Of a stretch of 64,000 bases of DNA, positions 9,185 through 43,158 are shown in pieces. The notes beneath the pieces were generated by a model. It worked only from the letters and a program-made list of their open reading frames with translations. It was not told the DNA's origin and did not search any database. The stretch's first letter is position 1; every line of letters starts with the position of its first letter. Source of the stretch: an uncultured Dehalococcoidaceae bacterium (GTDB lineage Bacteria > Chloroflexota > Dehalococcoidia > Dehalococcoidales > RBG-16-60-22); the NCBI GenBank assembly GCA_964595455.1, contig CAZQQL010000001.1:15236-79235 (forward strand), written 5' to 3'. The translations under genes and the position numbers were made by a program.

Positions 9185-9195
9185 TGGGGTAATGC

Positions 9196-21415: not shown

Positions 21416-23686
21416 CTACTCGTTCTTAAGCGCCTGCTCCAGTTCGAGCATGAACTCCATGTCTCCGGCGGGACGGGCGAGGTCGAACTCCACCCTGTCG
21501 ATACGGTTCGTGTAGGGGTAGTTCTTCTTTTCCTTCATACCGCCGGTGACGGAAATGAAGGGGAACCTCCCGACACTGAACGTTCCGCCGTGGAACAGCG
21601 GCTGCGATTCGATGTACATGTTGCCGCCCGGTTTACCGTTGATGAGCAGCCTTCCTACCCCCGCTCCGGGACGGGTAAGGCAGAAATCGAAAGCTAGTTC
21701 GAGGTCGCCTTCCGGCAGTTCGGTGTCCGAATCGAGGTGGAAATGCCGGTACGCCAGCCAGTTGTAGTGGAATTTCAGTTTTTTGTCCTCGATGTAGAGG
21801 GCGTACCCGCCGAGATTGTCTCCCGCGGCGAACAAAGCGCCTTCGTCACCGGTTTTGTACGTGACGAAAGCCCTGGCGGTAAAGGAATCCTGGGCCAGCC
21901 TCGGCCCGGAGCCGGCGGAGAACTCGGGATAGAACACGTAGCGTGTCCTGGACTTAACCGGGGCATAGCGGTACATCTTCTTGGAATTGAAGCCTTCAGC
22001 CCGTTTCAAGTGGCTTTCAGCCAGGGGCAGGACGCCGTACTTGCCGGCCTCATGCCACCAGAGGTCTTTCAGTTCCCGGAGCTTGTCCGGGTATTTTTCA
22101 GCCAGGTCCACGGTCTCGGTGAAATCCGTGTCCGTATGGAACAGTTCCCAGACATCTTTATCGAAGTCGAAGCCGGGATTGACCGCGTGGTCCGCGACAG
22201 CCTTCCAGCCGTCCGCCCAGATACCCCGGTTGCCGACCATTTCATAGTACTGGACATGGCGGCGGGTTTTTTCCTCGGGGCTGTCGAACGTGTATGCCAT
22301 GCTGACGCCATGCTTGGGCTCCTGCCTGACGCCGTTGATGGACGCCGGCTGCCCGATGCCGCACATCTCCAGGACGGTGCTGTTGATGTCCACGACATGG
22401 TGGTACTGGGTCCGGATACCGCCTTTGTCCCTGATCCTGTCCGGACACGTAACGATGAGCGGGACCTTGATGCCGCCGCAGTGGTTCCAGGACTTGTACA
22501 TGCGCAGCGGTGTATTGGAAGCCCGTGCCCACCCCGAGGGGTAGTGGCATTTCACATCAGCCGAGCCCAGCGATTCCAGTTCATCCTCGCCGACCAGCGG
22601 CGGGTCCTGTTCCGTCACGTAATGGTAAGCAAAACTCCGGGTGCCCCAGCGACCACCTTCGGCGGAGGCGCCGTTATCGGAGAGGAACACCGTTATCGTG
22701 TTATCGTACTGGCCGATTTTCTTCAGGTAATCTATCACCCTGCCGATCTGGGCGTCGGTATGCGTCACGAAACCGGCGTAAACCTCCATGTATCTCGAAA
22801 AAGCGCGTTTTTCTTCCGCGGTTAATGTATCCCATCTGGCGGCGATGTAGTCGGTTTCCGGGAGACGGCAGTCTTCCGGCACGATGCCGAGTTCCTTCTG
22901 CCGCTGCAGCACTTTCTCGCGGTAGACGTCCCAGCCTTCATCGAATTTGCCTCTGTAACGGTCCACGTAGTCTTTGGGGACCTGGTGCGGCGAGTGGTGC
23001 GCGCCGAAAGCGAGGTAGCAGAAGAAAGGCTTGTCAGGGTCGTTGGACTTGAGGTCGCCGATATAGGAGATGGCCCGGTCGGCCAGGTCTTCGCTGAGGT
23101 GATAGCCTTCATCCGGGGTCTTCGGCTGATTGACGAACTCGTTCCCGCACACGAGGTCGGGGTAGAACTGGCCTGTCGCCGCCCCGAGGAAACCGTAGTA
23201 TTTCTCGAACCCCCGGCCGAGCGGCCACTGGTCGAACGGCCCGGTGGAAGAACGCGTTTCCGGCGGGACCAGGTGCCATTTGCCGATGGCATACGTGGCG
23301 TAACCGTTCCTGACCAGCGTTTCGCTGATCATTCCGTACTCTTTGCCGACGCGCGCCCGGTATCCGGGGAAACCCATGTCGATCTCCGCGATGAACCCCA
23401 TGCCGGTGGTGTGGCAGTTGCAGCCGGTGAGGAGGCTCGCCCTTGTGGGGGAACACATGGCGTTGACGTGGAAGTCCCGATAGCGGAGGCCGTCCGCCGC
23501 CAGCGCATCGATGTTGGGCGTATCGATCAACGAGCCGTAACAGCCCACGTCCGAGTAGCCCGTATCGTCGAGGAGGATATAGAGGATGTTAGGAGCGTTT
23601 GCAGGCGGACCATTCTCAGGCCACCACGGTGTGGAATCCATGTAACGTGTTTTGATGATGCCCTGGTATTGTTTTTTATCAGCCAT
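21416..23686 (-). CDS. Cys-type arylsulfatase-family sulfatase (756 aa, no signal peptide)
   Basis: LLDDTGYSD metal site, CSPTRASLLTG formylglycine motif, GKWHL block. Confidence 0.9.
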   Translation of the reverse strand: MADKKQYQGIIKTRYMDSTPWWPENGPPANAPNILYILLDDTGYSDVGCYGSLIDTPNIDALAADGLRYRDFHVNAMCSPTRASLLTGCNCHTTGMGFIAEIDMGFPGYRARVGKEYGMISETLVRNGYATYAIGKWHLVPPETRSSTGPFDQWPLGRGFEKYYGFLGAATGQFYPDLVCGNEFVNQPKTPDEGYHLSEDLADRAISYIGDLKSNDPDKPFFCYLAFGAHHSPHQVPKDYVDRYRGKFDEGWDVYREKVLQRQKELGIVPEDCRLPETDYIAARWDTLTAEEKRAFSRYMEVYAGFVTHTDAQIGRVIDYLKKIGQYDNTITVFLSDNGASAEGGRWGTRSFAYHYVTEQDPPLVGEDELESLGSADVKCHYPSGWARASNTPLRMYKSWNHCGGIKVPLIVTCPDRIRDKGGIRTQYHHVVDINSTVLEMCGIGQPASINGVRQEPKHGVSMAYTFDSPEEKTRRHVQYYEMVGNRGIWADGWKAVADHAVNPGFDFDKDVWELFHTDTDFTETVDLAEKYPDKLRELKDLWWHEAGKYGVLPLAESHLKRAEGFNSKKMYRYAPVKSRTRYVFYPEFSAGSGPRLAQDSFTARAFVTYKTGDEGALFAAGDNLGGYALYIEDKKLKFHYNWLAYRHFHLDSDTELPEGDLELAFDFCLTRPGAGVGRLLINGKPGGNMYIESQPLFHGGTFSVGRFPFISVTGGMKEKKNYPYTNRIDRVEFDLARPAGDMEFMLELEQALKNE

Positions 23687-23738
23687 CGCTGTTCACCTCT
23701 CCGTTATATTCCCCCTTCTCCATCGGACGGGAACGGGA

Positions 23739-26021
23739 CTATTGATTGCGCAGTTCGCGCTCCAGTTCGAGCATGATGTCCATGTCATCGACGGGGCGTT
23801 CCATGTCGATTTCCACTCGGTCGAGCTTGCCCTGGTACCGGAAGTAATCCGTCGATTTCATATCCTTTGTGATCGGTGAAAGGGCGTACCTGCCGACGGC
23901 GAACTTGCCGCCCGAGAACAGCGGGTAAACGCTGATGGAGATATTGCCGGACGGTTCTCCGTTGATGAGGAGACGCCCCACGCCCTGGTCCGGTTTGGTG
24001 TTGACAAATTCGAAGCCGAGCTTCACATCGCCATCAGGCAATTCCACGCCGGATACCAGGTGCAACTGCTGCTCGGCGAGGTAGTTCAGGTGGAACACGA
24101 GCCGGTTGTTCTTGACGTACAGCGCGTAGCCGCCCGAGTTGTCACCGGCGGCGACCAGTGTGCCCTCGTTTCCCTTCCGATGGTTGGCGAACGCCGTAAT
24201 GACGAAGGATTTGTTCGCGAGCCGGGGGGACAGGGAATTGGGGGTCATCTGCGGATAGAAGGTGTACCGGCTGTGGTACTCCGATGGCGCGAACCGGAGC
24301 ATCTTGTTCCAGTCGAAGCCGCCCATTTTCTTGTAATGGCTCTCCATCATGGGCAGCACGCCGTACTTTCCGGCCTCATGCCACCACAGGTCTACCATTT
24401 CCCGCAGTTTTTCCGGGTGACTGGCGGCCAGGTCGCGAGACTCGGAGAAATCCTCGTCGGTATGATAAAGCTCCCACTTGTCATCGTCGAAACTGGCGGA
24501 GATGACATGGTCGGAGACCGCCTTCCAGCCGTCCGCCCAGATGCCCCGGTTGCCGAGCATCTCGTAGTACTGTACCAGCCTCTGCCGGGGAGCAGCCGGG
24601 TCATCGAAGGTATAGGTCATGCTGATGCCGGGTTTGTCAGCCTGCTTGACGCCCTTGATGAATTCCGGCTGCTCGATGCCCGTAATATCCAGGACCGTCT
24701 TGTAGATATCGATGACGTGGTGATACTGCGTTCGTATACTGCCCTTGTCCTTGATCTTGTCCGGATAGCTGATGATGCAGGGCACTTTTACGCCGCCGGC
24801 GTGGCACCACGTCTTGTACATCTTGAGCGGCGTATTGCCGGCCCATCCCCAACTTCGGGGATAATTGTTGGCTGCTTCCGGTGAGCCCAGCAGTTCGAGC
24901 TGTTCATCAGAAGCGAGGTCCGCCCAGCGCATTGACATGAGATGATAATACTCGTTGAAACAGCCCTCGGGACCGCCCTCACCGGAAGCGCCGTTATCGG
25001 AGATGAGGACGATGAGCGTGTTATCGTACTGGCCGCTCTTTTTCAGGAAATCGAGCAGCCGCCCGACCTGTTCATCGGTATACGAAAGATAACCCGCGAA
25101 TACCTCCATGAATTTCGGGAAGACTTTCTTCTGGCGTTCCGTGAGGGAATCCCAGGGGGTGGCCAGGTAGTTGTGTTCCGTCAATTTGGTGTCCGGCGGG
25201 ATGAGGCCCATTTCCTTCTGGCGGGCGAATACCTTCTGCCGGTAGACGTCCCAGCCTTCGTCGAATTTCCCCTTGTATTTCTCGATGTAGTCTTTCGGAG
25301 CGTGGTGCGGGCCGTGCATCGCCCCGAAGGAGAGGTAGCAGAAGAAAGGCTTGTCAGGAGCGCAGGACTTCTGGTCGCCGATATAGCCGATTGCCTTGTC
25401 CACGAGGTCGGCGCTGAGGTGGTATCCTTCTTCCGGGCTCTTGGGAGGATCGATGTGGTGGTTATCGCACACCATGTCCGGGTAAAACTGGCTGGTGGCT
25501 GCGTTGAGGAACCCGTAATATTTTTCGAAGCCGCGGCCCAGCGGCCACTGGTTGAAGGGGCCGGCGCCGCTCATGTGCTTCTGGTTGCAGAGATGCCATT
25601 TGCCTACGGCAAAGGTGGAGTACCCGTTCTCCAGCAGCGCCTCGCTGATGTAGCCGTACTTCTGGTTGATGTCGCCGGAAAGGGCCGGGAAACCGAGGCT
25701 GTAGTTGGCCAGGAACCCGAGCCCGACGGTATGGTTGTTGCATCCGGTCAGCAGGCTGGCCCGCGTCGGAGAGCACATGGCGTTGACGTGGAAATCGCTG
25801 TACCGCAGACCGTCGGCGGCGATGGAATCCATGTGGCGGGTATCGATGAGAGACCCGTAGCAGCCCAGCTGGGAATACCCGGTATCGTCGAGAACGATAT
25901 AGAGGATATTCGGCGCCCCTTTGGGCGGCCTCGGTTCATCCTGCCACCACGGCGTCGAATCGATATACGATGTCTTGATAACACCCTGGAATTCCTGTTC
26001 CTGGTTGGCCATGTTTTTCAC
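23739..26021 (-). CDS. Cys-type arylsulfatase-family sulfatase, tandem paralog (760 aa, no signal peptide)
   Basis: VLDDTGYSQ, CSPTRASLLTG, GKWHL. Collinear with the downstream paralog over its full length. Confidence 0.9.
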   Translation of the reverse strand: MKNMANQEQEFQGVIKTSYIDSTPWWQDEPRPPKGAPNILYIVLDDTGYSQLGCYGSLIDTRHMDSIAADGLRYSDFHVNAMCSPTRASLLTGCNNHTVGLGFLANYSLGFPALSGDINQKYGYISEALLENGYSTFAVGKWHLCNQKHMSGAGPFNQWPLGRGFEKYYGFLNAATSQFYPDMVCDNHHIDPPKSPEEGYHLSADLVDKAIGYIGDQKSCAPDKPFFCYLSFGAMHGPHHAPKDYIEKYKGKFDEGWDVYRQKVFARQKEMGLIPPDTKLTEHNYLATPWDSLTERQKKVFPKFMEVFAGYLSYTDEQVGRLLDFLKKSGQYDNTLIVLISDNGASGEGGPEGCFNEYYHLMSMRWADLASDEQLELLGSPEAANNYPRSWGWAGNTPLKMYKTWCHAGGVKVPCIISYPDKIKDKGSIRTQYHHVIDIYKTVLDITGIEQPEFIKGVKQADKPGISMTYTFDDPAAPRQRLVQYYEMLGNRGIWADGWKAVSDHVISASFDDDKWELYHTDEDFSESRDLAASHPEKLREMVDLWWHEAGKYGVLPMMESHYKKMGGFDWNKMLRFAPSEYHSRYTFYPQMTPNSLSPRLANKSFVITAFANHRKGNEGTLVAAGDNSGGYALYVKNNRLVFHLNYLAEQQLHLVSGVELPDGDVKLGFEFVNTKPDQGVGRLLINGEPSGNISISVYPLFSGGKFAVGRYALSPITKDMKSTDYFRYQGKLDRVEIDMERPVDDMDIMLELERELRNQ

Positions 26022-26041
26022 CTCTCATTACGGATTGAGTA

Positions 26042-27193
26042 TCAATTTGGCTGTTGGGCCGATTGCCGTTGCGCCTGGACTTTCCGGACATATTTGGCGA
26101 CTTCGAGCAAATGGGGATAGGCATAATCGAGGAACTCGATATAAGATTGACAGAAGTAGTTGCGTTCAAGCCCGCCGGAAGGCTGGGCCGGCCGGTCCCG
26201 GCGGCATCCGCCGCGGCAGAGGGCCTTCCATTTGCAGGTCAGGCATGCCGGCGGCGCCGATAACGAGCTGCTGATGAAGCGCCGGCACGTATCGCTTTCA
26301 TAAAGTTCCAGCAGTTCCTTGTCCTGGATATCACCCAGTTTCCATTCATCGGTGACGTAGAAATCACACGGGTATACACTGCCGTCAGCCTCGAAAACGA
26401 ACTGGCACTGGCAGGAGCCGAGCAGGCTGCACATCTCGGGGGACATGCCCATTACCATCCTCACCAGGTTATCGAAGTACCTTACGCTCACCTCCCGGCC
26501 GCCCGTAAAATCCGTGAACCATTTATCGAAGAAACGCAGCAGGAAAAAGGCGTAGCTCTTCGGGCTCAGTGAATAATCGCGTCCCCCTCGCTCACCGGCG
26601 CCGGGATCGATGCAGGGCATGAACTGGAGATAGTTGAAATTGTTGGCTTTGTAATAATCGTAGAGTTTGTCCGGATGGCGCGCCGTTGCTTCGGTAACCA
26701 CGAACAGAATATTGTAGTCCACTTTATGCCGGTTGAGCAGCGCCGCCGTGCGGATCACCGCATCATGAGTGCCTTTCCCCCTGGCATCGGTCCGGTATGC
26801 GTCATGCAGGTCATGGGGACCATCCAGGGAAAGCCCGATGAGAAAGCGGTTATCGTGCAGAAACTTGGCCCAATCGCTGTCCAGCAGCACGCCGTTGGTC
26901 TGGAGGCAGTTTTCGATCCTGACGCCGTTGACGTTCAGCTTCTGTTGAAGCTCTATCAAGGTCTTGTAGAAATCGAGCCCGCACAGCGTCGGCTCCCCGC
27001 CCTGGAAAGAAAAGGTCGCCTGCCCGGAGGCAAACCGAAGTGCCTTCCTGATGATCGTTTCGAGGGTCTCGAGGCTCATGAAGCCGAAATCGGCTACGCT
27101 GCGGTTGTCGGCCACGTCGTGGTAAAAGCAGTATTCACACTTCAAGTTGCACTTGCTTGAGGCCGGTTTAATGAGAACGCTGATCGGCGGCAC
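26042..27193 (-). CDS. Anaerobic sulfatase-maturating enzyme (radical SAM/SPASM)
   Basis: CNLKCEYCFY radical-SAM motif and C-terminal Cys-rich SPASM region (CLTCKWKALCRGGC). First gene of the sulfatase operon; GTG start. Confidence 0.9.
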   Translation of the reverse strand: MPPISVLIKPASSKCNLKCEYCFYHDVADNRSVADFGFMSLETLETIIRKALRFASGQATFSFQGGEPTLCGLDFYKTLIELQQKLNVNGVRIENCLQTNGVLLDSDWAKFLHDNRFLIGLSLDGPHDLHDAYRTDARGKGTHDAVIRTAALLNRHKVDYNILFVVTEATARHPDKLYDYYKANNFNYLQFMPCIDPGAGERGGRDYSLSPKSYAFFLLRFFDKWFTDFTGGREVSVRYFDNLVRMVMGMSPEMCSLLGSCQCQFVFEADGSVYPCDFYVTDEWKLGDIQDKELLELYESDTCRRFISSSLSAPPACLTCKWKALCRGGCRRDRPAQPSGGLERNYFCQSYIEFLDYAYPHLLEVAKYVRKVQAQRQSAQQPN

Positions 27194-32377: not shown

Positions 32378-33187
32378 CTAATGCCTTGACCGGTAATGCC
32401 CTCCCACCGCTTTCTGCACGTCTTCCCGGGACCGCACCCCGGCATCGTAGAGTTCCTTTAAAAACGTTTCCCTGGCTGCTATCTCGTCGGTTAACCGTTC
32501 GTACTGTACGCCGAACTTGTTGAAAATGACCTCCCGGAGCGTGTCCTCTTCCGGGTACATGAATTCACCGTCGAACGATTCGCGGACCGCCAGCGTCTGT
32601 GCGACCAGCTTGTCTTCATCCATGCCGATGACGCTGACCGTATCGACGCGGCGGATGGGTTCATCATCATACGTGGCGCCGTTGACCGCCTGGAGCGTCA
32701 CCACCAGGCCGAGCTGGGCTACATTTGCCAGCGGTACGCTCAGATACCCATATAGAAGATAGGCCACGTCTCTGACATTACGGGCATGCATGGTGGCCCC
32801 GAGACGGTAACCCTTGCGCATCAGCTTGAACGTTTTCTGCACCTGCTGGCCCCACAGGTATTCATACTGGTGGTTGCTGATCTCTTCCGAAACGAGGTAG
32901 ACAGATTCGGGTGTGTAACGGCTGGTGAAGGCAAAGGTCTCGGCGAACCCCTGTAACGTATAAAGCGGCTGGTCTGGCGGCAGCAGGTCCAGCAGGCAAT
33001 GCAGCAGCGTTGACTTGCCGGCGTAGATTGGCGCTGAAGCCACTAGGACGGAAGCCCGTGACTCCATGACCAGCCAGAGCAGCCCGGCCAGCTTGAAATC
33101 AAGCGTGCGTGACTCGATGAGATCAAGGATGGAAAGAGTGACCGGCCGGCTGTACGCCCAATCCCCCCACCATGCGGTCCTGGCCAT
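32378..33187 (-). CDS. Degenerate VirB11/GspE (T2SS-E)-like P-loop ATPase core, stand-alone
   Basis: Walker A-like APIYAGKST, Walker B-like VYLVSEE, and the GATMHARNVRDVAYLL block (compare the secretion-ATPase His box). Real start is MARTAWW at 33187; the upstream extension of the ORF is Ser/Arg-rich junk. Confidence 0.6.
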   Translation of the reverse strand: MARTAWWGDWAYSRPVTLSILDLIESRTLDFKLAGLLWLVMESRASVLVASAPIYAGKSTLLHCLLDLLPPDQPLYTLQGFAETFAFTSRYTPESVYLVSEEISNHQYEYLWGQQVQKTFKLMRKGYRLGATMHARNVRDVAYLLYGYLSVPLANVAQLGLVVTLQAVNGATYDDEPIRRVDTVSVIGMDEDKLVAQTLAVRESFDGEFMYPEEDTLREVIFNKFGVQYERLTDEIAARETFLKELYDAGVRSREDVQKAVGGHYRSRH

Positions 33188-33230
33188 TACGTTTACTCCC
33201 TGTATCGGGGATATTCGCCTGGTATACAGG

Positions 33231-35252
33231 CTATATCCTGGATTTCTTGTTGTTGATGTAATCGATAATGATGTACTCGCCGAGTTTTCCGGGCTCCGTG
33301 ACGAAGACCCTTCCGCGATTGATGCGCGCCATTCTGTCCACGAAGAAAGTGAAATCATCGTAGCTGGGCAGCATGAACGTGTTGATGACGATGCCCGCCC
33401 GCGTGCAGTTCTGGACTTCATGCAGCGTCACGTCCACGCAGCGGCGCGTCGGCGGCAGGTGGAAAACTATCTGCCCGTTTTCAACGTGGGAAGTCGGCTG
33501 CCCGTCCGAGATCATGATGATCTGCTTGTTGGCGGCGCGTTCTTTCTCCAGTATCTTGCGCGCCATGGTGAACGCCAGGTGCATGTTGGTGTACGGCGTG
33601 AAATCGTCCCAGGTGATGTAGGTCAGTTCTTCCGTGGTCATTCGCCGGGCCACGGCGGAAAAGCCCAGGATATGCAGCCTGTCCTTGGGGAACTTGCTGG
33701 TTATCAGCGAGTTCAGCGCTATGGAGACCATCTTGGCGGACTCGAAGTTGCCGCCCATGCGCATGGAAAGGCTCATATCCAGCATGATCACAGTGGCGGA
33801 ACGGACGGCGTTCTCATGGCGGAACACCTCGAAGTCCGCCACCTTCATCTTGATCGGCACCTGCGGGTCCCGCAGCATGGCGTTTGTCAGCGTCTTCTGC
33901 AGGTGCAGTTCGAAGTCGTCCCCGAACTCGTACTGCTTGGTCTCATCGGTCCGTTCGCCTCCGGCGCCGCGTTCCCGGACGATATGGGAGCCGGTGCGGT
34001 CTTTCTTCAGGCTGGCAAAGACGGTGTTGAGGGCTTTTTCTCCTATTTTCTTCATGCCGCGCGGCGTCAGTTCGTAACGGCCTCTGTCCTTACGGATGTA
34101 GCCGGCGTCCTCCAGCATCTTGGTGATCTCACGCATCTTCTCCAGTTCCTGGCTGGCGGTATCTCCCAAAAGTTCCTTCACCAGTGAATCATCGATGTCA
34201 TCCATCGAATCCATATACCGTGAGTCCTGGAACTGGTTTTCCAGCCGGTCCATCTTCTGGAGCTGCTCCATGAGTTTCATCGCCTCGGCGTAGGAAATGG
34301 ACTCATCACCGCTGAAGGAATACCCCTGCTCGTCCAGCCAGCCGGGGAACAGGGATTCCATGTTGGCCGCCATCTTGGCCATCTCGTACTTGGTGGATTC
34401 GTCCAGCATGGAATCGATGAGGTCCTGCAGTTCCTGCTGGTCCGCCGGTGAAAGGCTTTCCATTAGCGCCTGGGCCTGGGCCATCTGCTGCTGGAGTCGC
34501 TCGATCAATTCGTCCAGGTCCTTTGGCGGGTTATCGCCGAAGAACTGCCCGAATTCCTTCATGAACCCGTCGAAGTCCGGTTCCTCCCCGCGGCGCCTCG
34601 CTTCCAGCATCTGGTTGATGGCTTCCATGAAGTGCCGCATCGCAGCCAGCGAATCGGCGTTCATGTTCTTGAGGCGTGATGCCATCTCCTTGGCGTAGGA
34701 AGACATGGTGCTCCGTTTCAGCATGTCCATGAGTTCCTGGAACTGCCGGCCTGCTTCGCCGTCCATGAAATCGTACTTGCTCAGGTCCTTGATTCGCCCG
34801 CCGACGTCCGGTGGCAGGGCTTCCAGCTTTTCCATGTTCTCGGAAGCCCGGTCTTCCAGGTTTTTCAATAGCCGTTCCCGTATCTGCGGGTCAAGGTCCT
34901 GCCCGCTTTCCGAGGCTTTCTTCCGGGCATCGTCCAGCCGCTGCTGGATGCCCTGACGTTCCTGGTCGATGATGTCGTCGAGGCGTTTGCGGATGTCCTC
35001 CATCATGGAGTTCAGCTTGTATTTTTCAAGCTGTTCCTGCCGCCGCTGCCGCAGCCGCTGGATGAATTCCTGGAGGCTGGGCAGGCGCCGGCCTTCCGGG
35101 TCGGTCATCCCCCGCCGCTGCATCATGTGCAGGGCGTTGGAGAGATCGCCGTCCCGCATCAGGTTCTTCTGAAGCTCGTCCATGAGGGCGTCGGCATCCG
35201 GATCGAAGATGTTCTGCGAGCCGTCCCACTCTGAGTACTTGTTGCTGTCCAT
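33231..35252 (-). CDS. VWA-domain protein with long acidic coiled-coil N-terminal region (BchD/CoxE-like)
   Basis: Starts MDSNKYSEWDGSQ. MIDAS motif DMSLSM in the C-terminal VWA domain. The start lies 2 nt after the AAA+ gene's stop. Confidence 0.8.
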   Translation of the reverse strand: MDSNKYSEWDGSQNIFDPDADALMDELQKNLMRDGDLSNALHMMQRRGMTDPEGRRLPSLQEFIQRLRQRRQEQLEKYKLNSMMEDIRKRLDDIIDQERQGIQQRLDDARKKASESGQDLDPQIRERLLKNLEDRASENMEKLEALPPDVGGRIKDLSKYDFMDGEAGRQFQELMDMLKRSTMSSYAKEMASRLKNMNADSLAAMRHFMEAINQMLEARRRGEEPDFDGFMKEFGQFFGDNPPKDLDELIERLQQQMAQAQALMESLSPADQQELQDLIDSMLDESTKYEMAKMAANMESLFPGWLDEQGYSFSGDESISYAEAMKLMEQLQKMDRLENQFQDSRYMDSMDDIDDSLVKELLGDTASQELEKMREITKMLEDAGYIRKDRGRYELTPRGMKKIGEKALNTVFASLKKDRTGSHIVRERGAGGERTDETKQYEFGDDFELHLQKTLTNAMLRDPQVPIKMKVADFEVFRHENAVRSATVIMLDMSLSMRMGGNFESAKMVSIALNSLITSKFPKDRLHILGFSAVARRMTTEELTYITWDDFTPYTNMHLAFTMARKILEKERAANKQIIMISDGQPTSHVENGQIVFHLPPTRRCVDVTLHEVQNCTRAGIVINTFMLPSYDDFTFFVDRMARINRGRVFVTEPGKLGEYIIIDYINNKKSRI

Positions 35253-35254
35253 TG

Positions 35255-36709
35255 TTAATGCCTGTAAATTGCCTTCCCTTTGATCCTGGTCTTGTTCAGC
35301 CGCTTGTTCAGGTGCGCGCCTTCCAGGATGAATTCCACCGCCGACGCAATATGCTCCGGCGCCTCGGCTTCGGTCAGTTTTTTCACGGCGGCGGCCATGC
35401 CCTGGATTTCCTTTTCGTACCGCAGGTAGGAAGCGGCCTTGTGCGCGTCTGAGGTCTCCACGTTGAACCCGCCGTTGAACTGCCGGACGATGGGGTCCAG
35501 TTCCTCGAAGGCGAAGCGCCGGTTGAATACAATAAGTATCGCCCGCTTGATGAGGTCGTCGATGATCTTCTCTTCGTTCTTTTCCTCGAAGCCTTCCATC
35601 TCCACCTTGCCGGTGGTGGAAGCGACGATGTAGGGGAGATCGCTGACGCGCGGCACCGCCAGTTTTTCTCCGAGGACGATGGCCCGCCGAACGGCGTTGG
35701 CCGTAACCGTCTCCATGTTGGCAATGGATACCCGTACGCTGACCCCGGAGCGCTGGCCGATATCGGGACTGCGCCGGGCCAGGTGCGTTATCTCCGCGAC
35801 GATTTCCTTGATGTAGTCTGGCACGAAAAACGAGATGTCTTTGTCTCCGAATTGCTGCCATTCCTGCTCGACGATAGTGATCTCATCCTCGATGGTGGCC
35901 GGGTAATGGGTACGTATCTGCGAGCCGAAGCGGTCCTTGAGCGGCGTGATGATCCGGCCGCGGCTGGTGTAGTCCTCCGGGTTGGCGCTGGCCAGGATCA
36001 TGACGTCCAGGGGCAGCCGTACCCGGTAACCCTTGATCTGGATGTCTGCTTCTTCCATGAGGTTGAAAAGTCCTACCTGTATCCTCTCGGACAGGTCCGG
36101 CAGCTCGTTGATGCAGAAGATGCCCCGGTTGGTGCGGGGAATGATGCCGTAATGGATCGTCAATTCGTCGGACAGGTAACGGCCTTCCGCCACCTTGATC
36201 GGGTCCACGTCCCCGATGAGGTCCGCGATGGTAGTATCCGGGGTTGCCAGTTTTTCTCCGTACCGGTCCTGCCGGGGTATCCAGGCTATCTCGGTGGCAT
36301 CCCCGTGCCGGGCGACGGTCTCACGGCACGATTTGCACAGCGGCGCGAAGGGGCTGTCATTGATCTCACAGCCCTGGATGATCGGCATCTCTTCATCCAG
36401 CAAGTCAACCAGCAGACGCATCACGCGGGATTTGGCCTGGCCGCGTTCTCCCAGCAGGATGATGTTCTGCCCGGAGAGTATGGCGTTCTCCACCTGGGGG
36501 ATGACCGTGGTGTCATACCCGATAATGCCCTGGAAGACCGGCTTCTTCTCCCTGAGCCGCGCAATAAGATTGCGCCGCAGTTCGTCCTTGATCGATTCGG
36601 GCTGGTAGCCGGAGGCCTTCAGCTCGCCGAATGTCATCGGTTTGCGAGATGGAGCCTTCTGTTTCGAGGCCGAGGTGGCATTCTGGTCTTTTTTGTTCGA
36701 TTCTTTCAT
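35255..36709 (-). CDS. AAA+ ATPase of the Mg-chelatase BchI/ChlI-like type
   Basis: Walker A GERGQAKS, Walker B FCINELPD, and ASANPEDYTSRGRIITPLKDRF (sensor/arginine-finger region). Confidence 0.8.
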   Translation of the reverse strand: MKESNKKDQNATSASKQKAPSRKPMTFGELKASGYQPESIKDELRRNLIARLREKKPVFQGIIGYDTTVIPQVENAILSGQNIILLGERGQAKSRVMRLLVDLLDEEMPIIQGCEINDSPFAPLCKSCRETVARHGDATEIAWIPRQDRYGEKLATPDTTIADLIGDVDPIKVAEGRYLSDELTIHYGIIPRTNRGIFCINELPDLSERIQVGLFNLMEEADIQIKGYRVRLPLDVMILASANPEDYTSRGRIITPLKDRFGSQIRTHYPATIEDEITIVEQEWQQFGDKDISFFVPDYIKEIVAEITHLARRSPDIGQRSGVSVRVSIANMETVTANAVRRAIVLGEKLAVPRVSDLPYIVASTTGKVEMEGFEEKNEEKIIDDLIKRAILIVFNRRFAFEELDPIVRQFNGGFNVETSDAHKAASYLRYEKEIQGMAAAVKKLTEAEAPEHIASAVEFILEGAHLNKRLNKTRIKGKAIYRH

Positions 36710-37063
36710 TGATCATGTACCGTTTCAGGTTTATTTCCTATCGTGCTCTGGCGCCTTGGTTGTCCGGAAAGACCGGGGCAGCTACTATGTGCTCCCTGGC
36801 CGAAAATCCGGGTCAATCATGCCGATACTTCGAGTATAGGCAGGCTTTTTCAAATGTGTCAATGCGTAAAAAGCGGTAGAAAAAGTGAGATGTGTTGCTG
36901 AGTACGTCCATGCCGTTCCTAGAGCCATACCTAGGTCACGCCGGTTGCAGTCTGCTATCGGCTGACTACGCGGTTTGCCGTCTCGTCCTGCTGCGGGTTA
37001 TAGTAGGGCATTGGACTCATCTTTTAAAAAGTTGGAGTCGGGATCGTCGATTTACATAATCCT

Positions 37064-39019
37064 GTGGATAGTGAGTTAATATTGAATGAATTACCGCCCT
37101 GCGGATGGAGCGGCACAGCAGAAGACTTCCTTGCTGTGTCTCCCGCTGCATGGATAGAAGTTCTGACCGGACATCACCAGCGCTGCATGCTGGAACCGCC
37201 CGCTGAAAGCCAGGTCCATGCCTGGGAATCGTGCGGAGAGGTCCTGAGAAGAGCTCTGAATACCCTTATTGCGGAAAGGCCATCTCTTTCCCGGCTGGGG
37301 CTCGTCTTCGAGTACGAACTGCCTCGCGAACGCGGACGACGGCCGGACATCATCATCCTCTCCGCCGGGCAGGTTATCGTCCTTGAATTCAAGGAATCGG
37401 AACAGCCTTCCCGGGCCTACATAGACCAGGCCGCTGCGTACGCCCGCGACCTGCTTAACTATCACGAGGCCAGCCGGAGATTCCAGGTACATCCCGTCCT
37501 GGTGCTGGTCAACGGCGGCAAGCCGGTAACGAGGAGAGACGGCGTCGATATCGTGCCGGGAAACCTGCTCGGAGAATACCTGCGGATTCTGCTGGAAGCA
37601 GAACGGGAACCGACGGATGTGACGGCCTGGCTCCGGTCGCCATATCGGCCCTTGCCGGATATCGTCAGCGCGGCGCGCCTGTTGTTTCAGCATGAACCCT
37701 TACCTTTCATCCGCCGCGCCGGGAGCGCCGGTATCCCGCGGACGGTTAACGCATTGTCGGGTATTATCGAACAGGCCAGGGCCGGGCATGAGCGTCATCT
37801 CATCCTGCTCACCGGCGTACCAGGTTCCGGCAAAACGCTGGCGGGACTCCAACTCGTGTACGCCGACCTGACCGGGAACGAAAATCTCAGTAAAGACGCG
37901 GTGTTCCTCTCCGGGAACGGCCCTCTGGTGGAGGTGTTGCAGCACGCCCTGAAAAGCAAGGTCTTTGTCCAGGACGTCCACGGTTTCCTGAAACAGTACG
38001 GGGGCGGCAGCCGGCAAACACCGTCTGAGCGCATCTGGGTCTACGATGAAGCCCAGCGCGCTTGGGACGCCAACAAGGCCGGTGAAAAACGGGGCAGCCG
38101 GGTATCCCAGCCGGAGGACTTTCTCCGTATAGCGGAGCGCCTCGAAGACTGGACGGTGATCATCGCCTTGATAGGGGAAGGGCAGGAGATCCATGTCGGC
38201 GAGGAAGGCGGGCTGGCGCAATGGGATAGTGCCATGAAGAAGGTGCCGCTTCGCTGGTCGGTCCACTGCCCGCCAAGGTTGAAAGAGGCATTTCCCTCGG
38301 CGGCTGAAGTCATTGCTCATCTCGAATTGGATCTGACCGCGTCTCTGCGCTCCCACCTCGCGGAAGACGTCCACTGCTGGGCTGCTGTACTGCTGGACGG
38401 CGACCTCGGGAAAGCCGCCGCTCTGTCTGTTCGCATGGCAGAACAGGGCTTCGACATGTACCTGGCTCGCGACCTGGAAAAGGCCAAAGACTACGTGCGC
38501 CAGCGCTACGCCGGCTGCGCGGACAAGCGATATGGCCTGCTGGCGTCCTCGAAGGCCGTGGACCTGGAATACTACGGTATCCCGAACAACTACTTTGCCA
38601 CGAGGAAGGTCAAATACGGCCCGTGGTACAACGCCGATCCGGCCGACAAACGTTCCTGCTGCGCCCTGGAAGAGGTGGTAACCGAGTTCGGATGCCAGGG
38701 CCTTGAACTGGATTTCCCCGTCGTTTGCTGGGGCAGCGATATGAAGTGGGACGTCAAATCCTGGAGAACGCCGATCACCCGTCGTATCAATGCCTTCAAC
38801 CCCCGGGTGCTGCGACTGAACAGCTACCGGGTCCTGCTCACGAGAGGGCGGGACGGGTTCGTGGTTTTTGTGCCTCCCGCCGCCCGGTACGGTCCCACTG
38901 CGGATGCCCTGAAAGCCGCCGGACTGAAGGACCTTGAAGAGGGACCGTGCCCCATAAAAGAGGCTCCGGTCCGCGAACCGGGTCTTTACAGCCCGCTGCA
39001 GTTCTTCGGCAAGAGATGA
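37064..39019 (+). CDS. PD-(D/E)xK nuclease-like N-terminal domain fused to a DUF2075-type P-loop NTPase/helicase-like core
   Basis: RRPDIIILSAGQVIVLEFKES (D...ExK), Walker A GVPGSGKT, Walker B VYDEAQRAW, IGEGQEI, CQGLELDF, VLLTRGRDG. The GTG start is uncertain. Confidence 0.8.
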   Translation: MDSELILNELPPCGWSGTAEDFLAVSPAAWIEVLTGHHQRCMLEPPAESQVHAWESCGEVLRRALNTLIAERPSLSRLGLVFEYELPRERGRRPDIIILSAGQVIVLEFKESEQPSRAYIDQAAAYARDLLNYHEASRRFQVHPVLVLVNGGKPVTRRDGVDIVPGNLLGEYLRILLEAEREPTDVTAWLRSPYRPLPDIVSAARLLFQHEPLPFIRRAGSAGIPRTVNALSGIIEQARAGHERHLILLTGVPGSGKTLAGLQLVYADLTGNENLSKDAVFLSGNGPLVEVLQHALKSKVFVQDVHGFLKQYGGGSRQTPSERIWVYDEAQRAWDANKAGEKRGSRVSQPEDFLRIAERLEDWTVIIALIGEGQEIHVGEEGGLAQWDSAMKKVPLRWSVHCPPRLKEAFPSAAEVIAHLELDLTASLRSHLAEDVHCWAAVLLDGDLGKAAALSVRMAEQGFDMYLARDLEKAKDYVRQRYAGCADKRYGLLASSKAVDLEYYGIPNNYFATRKVKYGPWYNADPADKRSCCALEEVVTEFGCQGLELDFPVVCWGSDMKWDVKSWRTPITRRINAFNPRVLRLNSYRVLLTRGRDGFVVFVPPAARYGPTADALKAAGLKDLEEGPCPIKEAPVREPGLYSPLQFFGKR

Positions 39020-40818: not shown

Positions 40819-40986
40819 CGAGCTTCTTGATTTACAAGGATTTTTCCTTGTTCTTTAACCATTTTATCATGCTCTGCCTGGAGAACTACTTGGAATTCTC
40901 ATGGTGACCTGCTACACTCGTTCTATGCATGATTCGTTTGTTGTAGTTGGGACATTTTCTGAATCTGAACGTTGCTCGAGGTAACC

Positions 40987-43158
40987 ATGAAATCGAACCG
41001 TAGTACACAGGTCAAGACCTTCTGTTCGATGTGCGGGCCCGCTGCGGGCTGCGGTCTCAATTGCTTTGTTGAGGACGGCAGGCTCGTCAGGGTCGAGGGC
41101 ATGAAAGAAGCACCCATGAACCATGGCAAGCTCTGCGCCAAGGCATTCGCGTCCGCTGAGTGGCTGTATTCTCCGCAGCGCCTGAAATACCCCATGAAAC
41201 GGGTGGGGAAGAAAGGCGAGGGCAAGTTCGAGAGGATCTCCTGGGATGAAGCGGTCGGGACAATCGCGGAAAAACTCCTCCAGCAGAAACGGGAATACGG
41301 CCCGGAATCGCTGGCCATTCTTTCCCCCCAGCACCGTTCCTACAGCGAATATCTCTACCGGTTTCTCATGGTCCACGGCAGCCCCAACTACGGCCACAGC
41401 GGCATTTGCGCCATCCAGCGGGCTTTCGGGTTTGCCTACACGCTCGGTAGCCCCATGACCATGACAGACTTCGAACACACCGACCTCATCGTCATCTGGG
41501 GGGCCAATCCGGCGTTTGCAGGCACCTCGAAAGGAACGATGAAGGGCATCCTTGATGCCCGTGACCGGGGCGCCAGAGTCATGGCTATCAAGCCGGTCCT
41601 CCAGCCGGACGCCGCCCAGGCTGATGAATGGGTGCCGGTGAGGCCGGGCACCGATGCCGCCCTGGCGCTGGCCATGCTGTATGTCATCATCACCGAGGAG
41701 CGCTATGACAAAGAATTTACCGCACGATGGTGCCACGGGTTCCCGGAACTCAAGGCGCACATCCGGCAGTACACCCCCGAATGGGCGGCGCCCATCACCG
41801 GCATACCGGCCGACAGGATACGCGAGATAAGCCGGCTCTACAGCGACGCGAAATCGGCCTGCATCTTGGCTGGGAATGCTTTCGACCAGACCGTCAATGC
41901 CAACAACGCCCTGCGGGCCGTCGCCTCGCTGATCGCCATAACCGGTAACTTCGACCGTCCCGGCGGCAACGTCGTACCGGTGCCCGGCAAGGCGCCCATG
42001 CTGAAACCGGTCCATATCCGGGAGAGATACACACAGGAATGGATCGATAAACTCGTCGGTCCGGAACTGGCTCCAGGGATGCAGCCGTTCATTGAAGGGA
42101 CCTCATCCGCCTATTTCCGCTGCCTGGACAGCGTGCTGACGGAGAAACCGTACCCGCCCAGGACTATCATCGCCCCCGGGACGCAGCCGACCGTCATCAC
42201 CCGTGGGACGCCGCATATCATCAAGGCGCTGGAAAAACTGGATTTCTTCGTCGTCATAGATGTCATGGAAACGGCTTCCATGCCCTGGGCGGACATCGTC
42301 ATCCCCGTGGCAACCATGTATGAGTGCGACCATCCGTTTGAATTCACCGGTTCCTGGCTCATGGCCCGGAACAAGGTGGTAGAACCGCTTGGCGACTACA
42401 AGTCGGACTACCAGTTCTGGCTGGACTTCGGGGTCGCCGCTGGTTACGGGGACGAGTTCTGGCACGGCGATATGACCGCCTGCATGAACTATCAGCTTGA
42501 AAACTTCGAGATGACGATAGACCAGTTGCGACAGCATCCCGACGGGATAACGTTCCAGCCGGGCGAGATGACGTACGAGAAATATGACAAAATATTTACC
42601 ACCCCGAGCCCCCGCCTGTCCCATGAGCCGTATCTGCCGGAAGGAAAAGTAGCCCTCTATAATACGACGTTCGAGAAGAACGGCTTCAATCCGCTGCCGG
42701 AATGGGTTGCCCCGCCGGAAGGCCCGGAACGCAGCCCGGAACTCCTGGAACGGTTTCCGCTCGTCTTTTTCGATACGCACACTTCGGATGCCTACAATCA
42801 TGGGTGGCTGCGGAACGTCCCCAGCCTTCGCGAGTTGGCCCCCGACCCATGGATATACATCCACCCGGATACGGCAAAAGCGAGGGGGATTAAAGATGGG
42901 GACTGGGTTTCTATCGAGTCCCCGCATGGTTGGATAAAGGCGAGGGCGGAACTGTTCCCCGGCATCGCGCCGGATGTCGTCATGGGACTGCATGGCTGGT
43001 GGCAGGGCTGCCAGGAACTGGGATTGCCCGGCTATGACCTGCTCGACGGCGGGGCCAATACGAACCTGCTGTTCACCATCGATCCCGATAAGGCGTTCGA
43101 TCCCGTCATCACCGCCATGACGAAGCAGACGCTTGTCCAGGTCCGTAAATTGACATAA
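40987..43158 (+). CDS. Molybdopterin oxidoreductase catalytic subunit (DMSO reductase superfamily), cytoplasmic
   Basis: N-terminal FeS Cys cluster CSMCGPAAGCGLNC. Molybdopterin and C-terminal dinucleotide-binding regions present. No twin-arginine signal. ATG 40987 follows GAGG. Confidence 0.85.
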   Translation: MKSNRSTQVKTFCSMCGPAAGCGLNCFVEDGRLVRVEGMKEAPMNHGKLCAKAFASAEWLYSPQRLKYPMKRVGKKGEGKFERISWDEAVGTIAEKLLQQKREYGPESLAILSPQHRSYSEYLYRFLMVHGSPNYGHSGICAIQRAFGFAYTLGSPMTMTDFEHTDLIVIWGANPAFAGTSKGTMKGILDARDRGARVMAIKPVLQPDAAQADEWVPVRPGTDAALALAMLYVIITEERYDKEFTARWCHGFPELKAHIRQYTPEWAAPITGIPADRIREISRLYSDAKSACILAGNAFDQTVNANNALRAVASLIAITGNFDRPGGNVVPVPGKAPMLKPVHIRERYTQEWIDKLVGPELAPGMQPFIEGTSSAYFRCLDSVLTEKPYPPRTIIAPGTQPTVITRGTPHIIKALEKLDFFVVIDVMETASMPWADIVIPVATMYECDHPFEFTGSWLMARNKVVEPLGDYKSDYQFWLDFGVAAGYGDEFWHGDMTACMNYQLENFEMTIDQLRQHPDGITFQPGEMTYEKYDKIFTTPSPRLSHEPYLPEGKVALYNTTFEKNGFNPLPEWVAPPEGPERSPELLERFPLVFFDTHTSDAYNHGWLRNVPSLRELAPDPWIYIHPDTAKARGIKDGDWVSIESPHGWIKARAELFPGIAPDVVMGLHGWWQGCQELGLPGYDLLDGGANTNLLFTIDPDKAFDPVITAMTKQTLVQVRKLT

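What the first reader, a model, noticed from the sequence alone, without database searches (positions are those of the whole stretch)
32378..36709. Three-gene operon: BchI-like AAA+ ATPase, BchD-like VWA protein and a degenerate VirB11/GspE-like ATPase
Seen in sequence:
- The three minus-strand genes are tightly packed. The AAA+ stop and the VWA start are 2 nt apart, and the third gene starts 43 nt after the VWA stop.
- Gene 1 has Walker A GERGQAKS and Walker B INELPD of the Mg-chelatase I-subunit type.
- Gene 2 has an acidic coiled-coil region of about 450 aa and a C-terminal VWA domain with MIDAS motif DMSLSM, which is the BchD architecture without its AAA half.
- Gene 3 is a 270-aa stand-alone secretion-ATPase-like core (APIYAGKST, VYLVSEE, GATMHARNV). 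It lacks the N-terminal domain of real T2SS/T4SS ATPases.

Context and interpretation:
- The window contains no chelatase H/CobN-like subunit, no pilus or secretion genes and no tetrapyrrole genes.
- AAA+/VWA pairs are established remodelling modules (chelatases, MoxR-VWA). vWA-MoxR ternary systems have been proposed computationally as conflict systems.
- I do not know of a described combination with a VirB11-like third component.
- The operon is divergent from a nuclease-NTPase gene (37064-39019).
Basis: partly seen in the sequence, partly recalled or inferred. Interest (0 to 1): 0.65.

Follow-up and report, generated by a model that had tools for sequence, protein, structure and literature searches.

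The report
Conserved Chloroflexota AAA+/VWA/FlaI-like ATPase operon
This is a real three-gene operon, found across Chloroflexota bacteria, that joins an uncharacterised chelatase-like motor and its adaptor protein (the pair also present in Mycobacterium tuberculosis as Rv0958/Rv0959) to a shortened secretion-type ATPase; its function is unknown and I found no description of the trio.

Summary
Three tightly packed minus-strand genes lie behind one promoter-like site:
- g1, 35255-36709: a ChlI-like AAA+ ATPase.
- g2, 33231-35252: a helical protein with a complete MIDAS/VWA domain.
- g3, 32378-33187: a 269-aa stand-alone P-loop protein. Its model matches the C-terminal ATPase domain of archaeal GspE and FlaI.

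New findings:
1. g1/g2 belong to the uncharacterised Rv0958/Rv0959 family. The pair also occurs in Actinomycetota, there without g3.
2. g3 belongs to a large family with no Pfam model. Every named member is from Chloroflexota. Its catalytic motifs are conserved, so it is truncated, not degenerate.
3. In 105 of 110 informative loci, a g3 relative sits next to g1 and/or g2 on the same strand. Three gene orders occur. One example is in cultured Thermomicrobium roseum.
4. The neighbouring candidate defence gene PDC-S41 is never co-located with the trio. No defence, chelatase H/CobN or pilus partner was found.

Best reading: an AAA+ motor plus MIDAS adaptor that remodels or regulates the FlaI-like ATPase. 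The linkage is shown; the mechanism is inferred. I rate it a new variant of a known kind, of moderate interest.

The parts
36833..36862 (-). Promoter-like site TTGACA-18 nt-TATACT (11 of 12 matches), about 125 nt upstream of the g1 start. It is the only strong candidate promoter for the operon.
   Evidence: This is a consensus match only; 3 sites were found against 2.6 expected in shuffles, so it is weak evidence on its own. No terminator-like site lies on the minus strand between g1 and g3.
35255..36709 (-). g1: ChlI-like AAA+ ATPase of the Rv0958 type, 484 aa. Walker A is GERGQAKS and Walker B is NELPD. It also carries the ChlI-type SANPE...PLKDRFG and QRSGVSVR motifs.
   Evidence: The motifs are invariant in 67 homologues. 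Identity to relatives is 76% in Dehalococcoidia, about 60% in distant Chloroflexota and 46-50% in Actinomycetota.
33231..35252 (-). g2: Rv0959-type VWA protein, 673 aa. It has an all-helical acidic N-terminal region (about residues 20-382), a winged-helix-like element (about 364-418) and a C-terminal VWA domain with a complete MIDAS site (D492, S494, S496, T555, D583).
   Evidence: Homologues 58-92% identical carry the precomputed Pfam families PF27532 Mb0984_helical, VWA_2 and PF27098 Rv0959_3rd.
32378..33187 (-). g3: stand-alone P-loop NTPase of 269 aa. It corresponds to the C-terminal ATPase domain of archaeal GspE and FlaI and has no N-terminal domain. Walker A is AGKST (K58), the Walker B glutamate is E102, the His box is H134 and R179 is conserved.

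Best explanation
The three genes form one functional module that is inherited as a unit.

- g1 is a ChlI-type AAA+ ATPase and presumably forms a ring.
- g2 is its VWA/MIDAS adaptor. Together they are the Chloroflexota version of the uncharacterised Rv0958/Rv0959 pair of Actinomycetota.
- g3 is a Chloroflexota-specific, catalytically competent NTPase made of only the C-terminal domain of a GspE/FlaI-type secretion ATPase.

By analogy with ChlI-ChlD, CbbQ-CbbO, NorQ-NorD and CoxD-CoxE, g2 would grip a partner through its MIDAS site, and g1 would use ATP to remodel that partner. The only conserved partner gene is g3. The most likely role of g3 is therefore as the client or regulated output of the pair: its assembly, disassembly or nucleotide state would be controlled by g1/g2.

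Shown: gene structure, domain identities, motif conservation, and the conserved linkage and co-divergence of the three genes.
Inferred: physical interaction, the direction of action (the pair acting on g3) and the cellular process served. The strong conservation and the lack of any effector domain suggest a housekeeping process.
For: - Linkage: of 110 loci with enough flanking DNA, 105 have g1 and/or g2 beside the g3 relative, always on the same strand. Three orders occur: g1-g2-g3, g3-g1-g2 and g2-g3.
- The linkage persists down to about 30% g3 identity and across roughly ten g3 sub-clades.
- Flanking genes differ between loci.
- Identity matrices of the three genes over 42 complete triads correlate at r = 0.96-0.97.
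- A cultured example exists: T. roseum TRD_RS11475-11485.
- Catalytic and MIDAS motifs are conserved in all three proteins.
- g1 is closest to ChlI/BchI among solved structures.
- The g3 model matches the GspE/FlaI C-terminal domain.
- The general AAA+/vWA substrate-capture mechanism is summarised in PMC7159879.
Against: - No interaction data and no multimer model were obtainable.
- The pair exists without g3 in Actinomycetota and in at least one Chloroflexi contig, so g3 cannot be its only client.
- g3 relatives occur without the pair in 5 of 110 loci, and once next to a hybrid histidine kinase.
- Type C loci lack an adjacent g1.
- g1 has non-canonical Walker motifs (GQAKS and NE), so its ATPase activity is unproven.
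- The co-divergence is confounded by shared phylogeny.
- 34 of the type B loci come from one clade.
Confidence: 0.5

Rival explanations
1. An anti-phage or conflict system of the AAA+/vWA ternary type. The pair would arm or release a third component when the cell is infected.
For: - Ternary MoxR-vWA conflict systems are described, and they occur in Chloroflexi and Actinobacteria (PMC7159879).
- In this window the operon sits next to a PADLOC candidate defence gene, PDC-S41.
- Flanking genes vary between loci.
- The T. roseum copy lies on a megaplasmid.
Against: - PADLOC and PHROGs give no defence-system or phage-function match for g1, g2 or g3; the single PHROGs match, g1 to a DNA-helicase family at E 1e-4, is weak.
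- No nuclease, protease, TIR or other effector domain is present.
- PDC-S41 is absent from all other loci.
- Sequence conservation is very high for a conflict system: g1 is about 60% identical between lineages in which g3 is about 30% identical.
- Architecture is constant rather than diversifying.
- In Tsukamurella the pair sits among housekeeping genes, next to purN-purH and ribosomal protein genes.
Confidence: 0.1
2. A metal or cofactor insertase of the chelatase or CoxD/E, NorQ/D type that acts on an unlinked metalloenzyme. g3 would be an accessory NTPase, for example a delivery factor.
For: - The closest characterised relatives of g1 are ChlI/BchI.
- AAA+/VWA pairs commonly mature metalloenzymes (PMC7159879).
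- The pair works without g3 in Actinomycetota, so another client must exist there.
- Dehalococcoidia are rich in metallo- and corrinoid enzymes (established knowledge).
Against: - No ChlH/CobN-size gene and no conserved metalloenzyme gene lies near the operon in the window or in about 145 loci.
- g1 and g2 score far below the chelatase family cut-offs.
- g2 lacks the AAA+ half of BchD.
- g3 has a secretion-ATPase fold, not the fold of the G3E metallochaperone GTPases.
Confidence: 0.2
3. g3 is the motor of a cryptic secretion, pilus or nucleic-acid translocation apparatus, and g1/g2 are merely co-transcribed neighbours.
For: - The g3 fold is that of GspE, FlaI and CpaF.
- RefSeq names some members 'type II secretion system protein E'.
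- PilT-class ATPases also act on DNA: the fold-search hit list includes an archaeal RuvB-like Holliday-junction helicase.
Against: - The N-terminal domain that secretion ATPases have in addition to this ATPase core is absent.
- No platform protein or pilin gene emerged among the conserved neighbours in the loci.
- The only recurrent neighbours are g1 and g2, in three different orders. That pattern argues against accidental co-transcription.
Confidence: 0.1
4. g1 is a sigma-54-type transcriptional activator, as RefSeq annotates it, and the operon is a regulatory cassette.
For: - Pfam Sigma54_activat hit of 23 bits, just above the cut-off.
- RefSeq product names.
- MSMEG_5512 was recovered in an RNA-polymerase-directed pull-down (PMC7092591).
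Against: - The hit covers only profile positions 85-143 of 168, which is the generic AAA+ core.
- AAA_5 and MCM score higher, and the solved relatives are ChlI/BchI.
- No DNA-binding domain was detected in g1.
- FLAG-tagged MSMEG_5512 did not bring down DNA (PMC7092591).
Confidence: 0.05

Closest known systems
Rv0958 / Rv0959 of Mycobacterium tuberculosis (MSMEG_5512 / MSMEG_5511): 'possible magnesium chelatase' plus a conserved VWA protein
   Same: - Same two-gene unit with the same domain families. g2 homologues carry Pfam Mb0984_helical, VWA_2 and Rv0959_3rd.
- The actinomycete pairs found here are 46-50% (g1) and 28-30% (g2) identical to the window proteins.
- In Tsukamurella the pair lies downstream of purN-purH. 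From memory, that is the M. tuberculosis arrangement.
- Protein lengths are similar.
   Different: - The actinomycete loci have no g3 relative within 6 kb.
- The function of the pair is unknown. The papers found only list the proteins in proteomic tables.
Mg-chelatase BchI/ChlI - BchD/ChlD (- BchH/ChlH)
   Same: - g1 is closest to ChlI/BchI among solved structures and keeps ChlI-type motifs.
- The partner protein has an acidic region followed by a C-terminal MIDAS/VWA domain.
   Different: - Scores are far below the family cut-offs: 45 bits against 467 for BchI.
- g2 has no AAA+ half.
- No H/CobN subunit is present.
- The third partner is a P-loop ATPase, not a porphyrin-binding subunit.
MoxR-type AAA+/VWA chaperone pairs (CbbQ-CbbO, NorQ-NorD, CoxD-CoxE, RavA-ViaA)
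   Same: An adjacent AAA+ gene and VWA/MIDAS gene. The proposed logic is the same: the adaptor captures a client and the ATPase remodels it (PMC7159879).
   Different: - g1 is on the chelatase branch rather than the MoxR branch. Its AAA_3 score is below the cut-off, and no MoxR structure was matched.
- The candidate client here is itself an NTPase.
Archaeal GspE (PDB 2oap) and the archaellum ATPase FlaI (PDB 4ii7, 4ihq); bacterial CpaF/TadA
   Same: - g3 aligns with residues about 232-499 of archaeal GspE, including the C-terminal helical part.
- Fold match has TMq 0.76-0.77.
- The Walker A motif, the Walker B glutamate and the His box are kept.
   Different: - g3 has no N-terminal domain and is half the length.
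- The Asp box has drifted, and there is a deletion of about 16 residues before Walker B.
- No pilus, archaellum or platform genes were seen among the conserved neighbours.
- The conserved neighbours are an AAA+/VWA pair.
vWA-MoxR ternary conflict systems (VMAP, iSTAND, FtsH and beta-propeller types; Kaur et al. 2020, PMC7159879)
   Same: Three-component layout: AAA+, vWA and a third conserved protein. In one type the third component is another NTPase. These systems occur in Chloroflexi and Actinobacteria.
   Different: - None of the four described types has a ChlI-type AAA+ or a PilT/FlaI-class third component; the terms ChlI, PilT and VirB11 do not occur in the paper.
- There are no variable effector domains here.
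- Conservation is high rather than diversifying.

Membership tests
Rv0958/Rv0959-type AAA+/VWA pair | The VWA protein carries the Pfam domains Mb0984_helical (PF27532), VWA_2 and Rv0959_3rd (PF27098). | tested here: met
   Precomputed hits on g2 homologues that are 58-92% identical and co-linear over 673 aa. The test on g2 itself is indirect, because the local Pfam copy lacks these two new models (one search found only VWA_2).
Rv0958/Rv0959-type AAA+/VWA pair | An adjacent, co-oriented ChlI-like AAA+ gene of about 460-500 aa lies upstream of the VWA gene. The pair is present in Mycobacteriales next to purN-purH. | tested here: met
   The g1 stop and g2 start are 2 nt apart. The Tsukamurella, Nocardia and Nonomuraea pairs match g1 at 46-50% and g2 at 28-30% over the full length. 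The Rv0958/9 sequences themselves were not available for comparison.
Mg-chelatase I/D subunits (BchI/ChlI, BchD/ChlD) | Scores at or above the NCBIfam equivalog cut-offs (TIGR02030, TIGR02031). | tested here: not met
   g1 scores 45.2 bits against a cut-off of 467 for BchI-ChlI, and 31 against 500 for BchD-ChlD. g2 has no BchD hit.
Mg-chelatase I/D subunits (BchI/ChlI, BchD/ChlD) | The D subunit has an N-terminal AAA+ module, and an H/CobN subunit is present. | tested here: not met
   The g2 N-terminal region is all-helical with no AAA+ hit. No ORF above 900 aa exists in the window, and no such gene recurs in related loci. The rest of the genome could not be searched.
MoxR AAA+ (AAA_3/AAA_5) with VWA partner | MoxR-type AAA+ signature. 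| tested here: inconclusive
   AAA_5 scores 33 bits, above its cut-off of 22. AAA_3 scores 19.5, below its cut-off of 27. The solved relatives found are ChlI/BchI and Lon, not MoxR proteins.
Type II/IV secretion, type IV pilus and archaellum ATPases (Pfam T2SSE; GspE, PilB, FlaI, VirB11) | Two-domain architecture: an N-terminal domain plus the C-terminal RecA-like ATPase domain. | tested here: not met
   g3 is 269 aa and aligns only with residues about 232-499 of archaeal GspE. The whole family is 250-300 aa long.
Type II/IV secretion, type IV pilus and archaellum ATPases (Pfam T2SSE; GspE, PilB, FlaI, VirB11) | Walker A, Asp box, Walker B and His box motifs. | tested here: inconclusive
   Walker A (G57, K58), the Walker B glutamate E102 and the His-box H134 are each kept in at least 112 of 115 representatives. 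The Asp box is replaced by rG..E.F.
Type II/IV secretion, type IV pilus and archaellum ATPases (Pfam T2SSE; GspE, PilB, FlaI, VirB11) | Family-model score above threshold. | tested here: not met
   No Pfam hit at E <= 0.01. NCBIfam FlaI scores 52 bits against a cut-off of 550, and TadA scores 20 against 373.
Type II/IV secretion, type IV pilus and archaellum ATPases (Pfam T2SSE; GspE, PilB, FlaI, VirB11) | Genomic association with platform (GspF/PilC/FlaJ) and pilin genes. | tested here: not met
   The only recurrent neighbours across about 145 loci are g1 and g2; other shared neighbours are lineage synteny, such as an oxidoreductase. No targeted search for platform genes was run.
vWA-MoxR ternary conflict systems (Kaur et al. 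2020) | The third component is a VMAP, an inactive STAND NTPase, FtsH or a beta-propeller, and variable effector domains are fused to the vWA or third component. | tested here: not met
   g3 has a FlaI/GspE C-terminal-domain fold. No effector domains are present. PADLOC gives no hit. The paper does not mention this type.

The most novel reading that the evidence does not exclude
g1, g2 and g3 would assemble into a hybrid two-engine machine. The long helical region of the VWA protein would replace the missing N-terminal domain of the secretion-type ATPase. It would bridge a ChlI-type AAA+ ring to a RecA-type g3 ring through its MIDAS site. That would be a previously unknown class of dual-motor remodelling or translocation complex. 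It would be specific to Chloroflexota and built on the Rv0958/Rv0959 chassis shared with mycobacteria.
Probability: 0.12. Interest if true: 0.8.

Novelty: new variant of a known kind. Interest (0 to 1): 0.55.

Why it matters
AAA+/VWA pairs are a recurrent way for cells to assemble or activate difficult enzymes, as with Mg-chelatase, Rubisco activase, NO reductase and CO dehydrogenase. This study links one large, uncharacterised branch of such pairs, the one that includes M. tuberculosis Rv0958/Rv0959, to a specific conserved partner in another phylum.

That partner is a secretion-type ATPase core with no known job. It gives a concrete handle on two protein families of unknown function. It also suggests that an AAA+/MIDAS chaperone may control another NTPase.

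The trio is present in a cultured thermophile, Thermomicrobium roseum, so the idea can be tested directly by co-purification and ATPase assays.

Tried and rejected
**Searches that found nothing or failed**
- PADLOC found nothing for g1-g3, and PHROGs gave only one weak match (g1 to a DNA-helicase family, E 1e-4).
- The AlphaFold2 model of g2 was of low confidence (pLDDT 61, pTM 0.42). Its Foldseek search against the PDB gave no significant match. I draw no conclusion from it beyond secondary structure.
- A profile search of g2 against PDB sequences found no relative.
- The afdb50 fold library was unavailable.
- Two attempts to scan metagenomes with diverse protein alignments failed because no stretch was conserved enough. 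I replaced them with a hand-made degenerate DNA pattern.
- A first crude ORF clustering was polluted by antisense ORFs in high-GC loci. I used it only to look for a fourth conserved gene. It found lineage synteny only.
- One context look-up returned a 1.3-kb contig and was uninformative.

**Literature**
- Searches for Rv0958/Rv0959, MSMEG_5511/5512/5513 and COG4867, and for the terms vWA, ChlI and PilT together, found no functional study of the pair and no description of the trio.

**Ideas rejected**
- That the divergent PDC-S41 gene belongs to the system: it is absent from every other locus.
- That the 286-aa protein upstream of the Tsukamurella pair is a diverged g3: it has no P-loop and gives no HMM hit.

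**Weak lead**
- A comparison of Chloroflexota and actinomycete g2 for a g3-specific region showed only a deletion of about 26 residues in the acidic coil of the actinomycete proteins.

Full report
**1. The observation**

The three minus-strand genes are as described.
- g1 runs 35255-36709 (484 aa).
- g2 starts at ATG 35252, two bases after the g1 stop codon, and ends at 33231 (673 aa).
- g3 starts at ATG 33187, 43 bases after the g2 stop and behind a GGGAG ribosome-binding site, and ends at 32378 (269 aa).

The mechanical ORF list shows longer versions of g2 (876 aa) and g3 (347 aa). These are upstream extensions of the same frames. Homologues of g3 are all 260-300 aa and begin at the same methionine.

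A strong promoter-like site (TTGACA-18-TATACT) lies at 36862-36833, about 125 nt upstream of g1. No terminator-like site interrupts the minus strand.

**2. What the three proteins are**

*g1.* It hits Pfam AAA_5, MCM and Sigma54_activat, and hits Mg_chelatase weakly. It hits NCBIfam BchI-ChlI at 45 bits against a cut-off of 467. Its only solved relatives by sequence are ChlI/BchI and, more weakly, Lon. It is therefore a chelatase-branch AAA+ protein but not a chelatase I subunit.

In 67 homologues the following motifs are essentially invariant:
- the unusual Walker A, GERGQAK[ST];
- the Walker B, NELPD, with Asn in place of the usual Asp;
- the ChlI-like SANPEDYT.RGRIITPLKDRFG and QRSGVSVR motifs.

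*g2.* It has a VWA_2 domain at residues 487-585. The MIDAS site is complete (D492, S494, S496, T555, D583) and conserved in 27 close and 62 diverse homologues. The rest is predicted to be helical, with a winged-helix-like element around 364-418. The model is of low confidence and matched nothing in the PDB.

The decisive clue came from precomputed Pfam hits on g2 homologues that are 58-92% identical: PF27532 'Mb0984_helical', VWA_2 and PF27098 'Rv0959_3rd'. The g1/g2 pair therefore belongs to the family of M. tuberculosis Rv0958/Rv0959.

I confirmed this with annotated actinomycete records. Tsukamurella, Nocardia and Nonomuraea carry adjacent homologues, g1 at 46-50% and g2 at 28-30% identity over the full length. 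In Tsukamurella they lie downstream of purN-purH.

The literature holds no functional study of this pair. MSMEG_5512 and MSMEG_5511 appear only in proteomic tables: an RNA-polymerase-directed pull-down, ClpC1 interactors and the PafBC proteome.

*g3.* It has no Pfam hit. It gives sub-threshold NCBIfam hits to FlaI and TadA. A profile of 16 homologues matches archaeal GspE (2oap, E 1e-19, residues 232-499) and FlaI. The AlphaFold2 model (pLDDT 87) superposes on the C-terminal domains of archaeal GspE and FlaI with TMq 0.76-0.77. CpaF/TadA comes next, and PilT, PilB and VirB11 are much weaker.

An exhaustive profile search found 1341 cluster representatives at E <= 1e-3 and 94 at E <= 1e-30. The best 150 are nearly all 250-300 aa. 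This is a large family of stand-alone proteins made of the C-terminal domain only.

The catalytic set is conserved in 115 representatives:

| Residue | Role | Conserved in |
|---|---|---|
| G57 | Walker A | 114 |
| K58 | Walker A | 113 |
| E102 | Walker B glutamate | 113 |
| H134 | His box | 112 |
| R179 | conserved arginine | 107 |

Only the Asp box has drifted. The protein is truncated, not degenerate.

Every member that carries an organism name is from Chloroflexota: Dehalococcoidia, Thermomicrobiales or 'Chloroflexota bacterium'.

**3. Is the trio a unit?**

I collected loci in three ways:
- a genome scan with a g3 alignment, giving 21 loci, all Dehalococcoidia-type MAGs;
- a metagenome scan with a degenerate DNA pattern for the g3 motifs, giving 120 stretches of which 4 were chance matches;
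- individual look-ups.

tblastn with the window proteins gave this classification:

| Class | Loci |
|---|---|
| g1-g2-g3 (the window's order; Dehalococcoidia clade) | 18 |
| g3-g1-g2 | 47 |
| g3-g1, contig ends there | 22 |
| g2-g3, contig ends there | 13 |
| g2-g3 with room for g1 but none present | 5 |
| no partner gene despite enough DNA | 5 |
| too short to tell | 29 |

So 105 of 110 informative loci link g3 to g1 and/or g2, and always on the same strand.

Look-ups made after this count added two more g3-g1-g2 cases, a g2-g3 case on two contigs and one more case without the pair:
- Thermomicrobium roseum DSM 5159, a cultured organism, has TRD_RS11475 ('type II secretion system protein E'), TRD_RS11480 ('sigma 54-interacting transcriptional regulator') and TRD_RS11485 ('VWA domain-containing protein') on its megaplasmid.
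- Another sub-family has a RidA gene inserted between g3 and g1.
- A g2-g3 pair without an adjacent g1 was confirmed with called genes on two contigs carrying the same g3 protein.
- One g3-like gene is paired with a hybrid histidine kinase instead.

The loci are not independent. 34 of the type B loci fall in one clade and 28 loci fall in the window's clade. Even so, roughly ten g3 sub-clades show the linkage.

Further support:
- Flanking genes differ between loci.
- Other shared neighbours reflect lineage synteny only.
- Over 42 complete triads the pairwise identity matrices of the three genes correlate at r = 0.96-0.97. Mean identities are 0.68 (g1), 0.56 (g2) and 0.43 (g3). This fits inheritance as a unit, with g1 under the strongest constraint.

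Exceptions go both ways. Orphan g3 genes exist (L002, L023, L042, L045, L060). The pair also occurs without g3, in a Chloroflexi contig (L022) and in all three actinomycete records.

**4. What it is not**

- *Chelatase.* Scores are far below the family cut-offs, g2 has no AAA+ half, and no ChlH/CobN-size gene is present.
- *Secretion or pilus system.* g3 has no N-terminal domain, and no platform or pilin genes appear among the conserved neighbours.
- *Recognised defence system.* PADLOC gives no hit, PHROGs gives only one weak hit for g1 (a DNA-helicase family, E 1e-4), and there are no effector domains. The divergent neighbour at 37064-39019 is PADLOC candidate PDC-S41 (E 3e-136), but it is absent from every other locus. 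The four MoxR-vWA ternary conflict systems described by Kaur et al. have other third components, and that paper does not mention ChlI, PilT or VirB11.
- *Sigma-54 activator.* The RefSeq label rests on a partial match to the generic AAA+ core.

**5. How it most likely works**

Established knowledge of AAA+/VWA pairs, summarised in PMC7159879, is that the VWA/MIDAS protein captures a client and the AAA+ ring uses ATP to change the client's conformation or assembly state. Examples are ChlI-ChlD, CbbQ-CbbO, NorQ-NorD and CoxD-CoxE.

Here the only conserved candidate client or partner is g3. It is an NTPase core that, in its full-length relatives, comes with an N-terminal domain which g3 lacks.

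I therefore propose that g1 and g2 form a motor-adaptor complex that binds g3 through the MIDAS site and controls its assembly or nucleotide cycle. The conserved linkage, the intact motifs and the co-divergence are shown. The interaction, its direction and the cellular process are inferred.

The pair works without g3 in Actinomycetota. g3 is therefore best seen as a Chloroflexota-specific addition to an older two-gene module. That module must have at least one other, unlinked client or function.

**6. Novelty and verdict**

The pair is a known but uncharacterised family. The g3 family has no Pfam model and no literature that I could find. Its conserved coupling to an AAA+/VWA pair is, as far as my searches reach, undescribed.

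It is a new variant of a known kind of system rather than something categorically new. Interest is moderate (0.55). The trio is phylum-wide, testable in a cultured organism, and touches an unexplained M. tuberculosis gene pair. No function is established, and the general logic of AAA+ plus VWA plus a partner is familiar.

Noticed in passing
window 1120-1256 (+) and 46580-46724 (+): Two Moco (molybdenum/tungsten cofactor) riboswitch aptamers score above Rfam gathering (49.8 and 49 bits). A molybdopterin-type oxidoreductase-sized ORF lies at 40972-43158.
   Followed up: no
window 37064-39019 (+): The divergent neighbour is a 651-aa protein that matches the PADLOC candidate defence family PDC-S41 (E 3e-136) and Pfam SLFN-g3_helicase. 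It is absent from about 145 related loci, so it is not part of the operon.
   Followed up: partly
window 21416-27193 (-): Two large sulfatase genes (756 and 760 aa) lie next to a radical-SAM/SPASM protein (383 aa). This looks like a sulfatase plus anaerobic maturase cluster.
   Followed up: no
window 61721-63826 (-): A 701-aa protein has STT3 and AglB-core domains, making it an oligosaccharyltransferase-like gene in a Dehalococcoidia-type bacterium. Glycosyltransferase and carbamoyltransferase genes are nearby.
   Followed up: no
L148 7001-9208: A g3-family protein (288 aa) overlaps by one base a hybrid histidine kinase (Response_reg + HisKA + HATPase_c). No AAA+/VWA pair lies within 7 kb. This is an alternative partnership for the g3 family.
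   Followed up: partly
L150 (Tsukamurella tyrosinosolvens NZ_LR134465.1) 5029-9349; also L151, L152: Actinomycete g1-g2 pairs have no g3 relative within 6 kb. In Tsukamurella a non-homologous 286-aa hypothetical protein with no P-loop occupies the position just upstream of g1. The pair lies between purN-purH and a ribosomal-protein cluster.
   Followed up: partly
L022 5622-9969 (Chloroflexi bacterium RBG_16_56_11): A g1-g2 pair (72% and 61% identical to the window proteins) is followed by a 231-aa protein with a weak C1q hit instead of g3.
   Followed up: no
L145 (Thermomicrobium roseum NC_011961.1 494616-499076): The trio of a cultured organism lies on the 918-kb megaplasmid. RefSeq product names for it are misleading: 'type II secretion system protein E' and 'sigma 54-interacting transcriptional regulator'. 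JGI names some g3 homologues 'EcfA2'.
   Followed up: partly
window 51377-52642 (-): A URO-D-family protein (partial match, 57.6 bits). URO-D-family genes also flank the pair in L022. I found no evidence of a link.
   Followed up: no
L015, L021, L012: g1 or g2 appears split into several ORFs in some long contigs. These are probably frameshift errors of the assemblies rather than pseudogenes.
   Followed up: no
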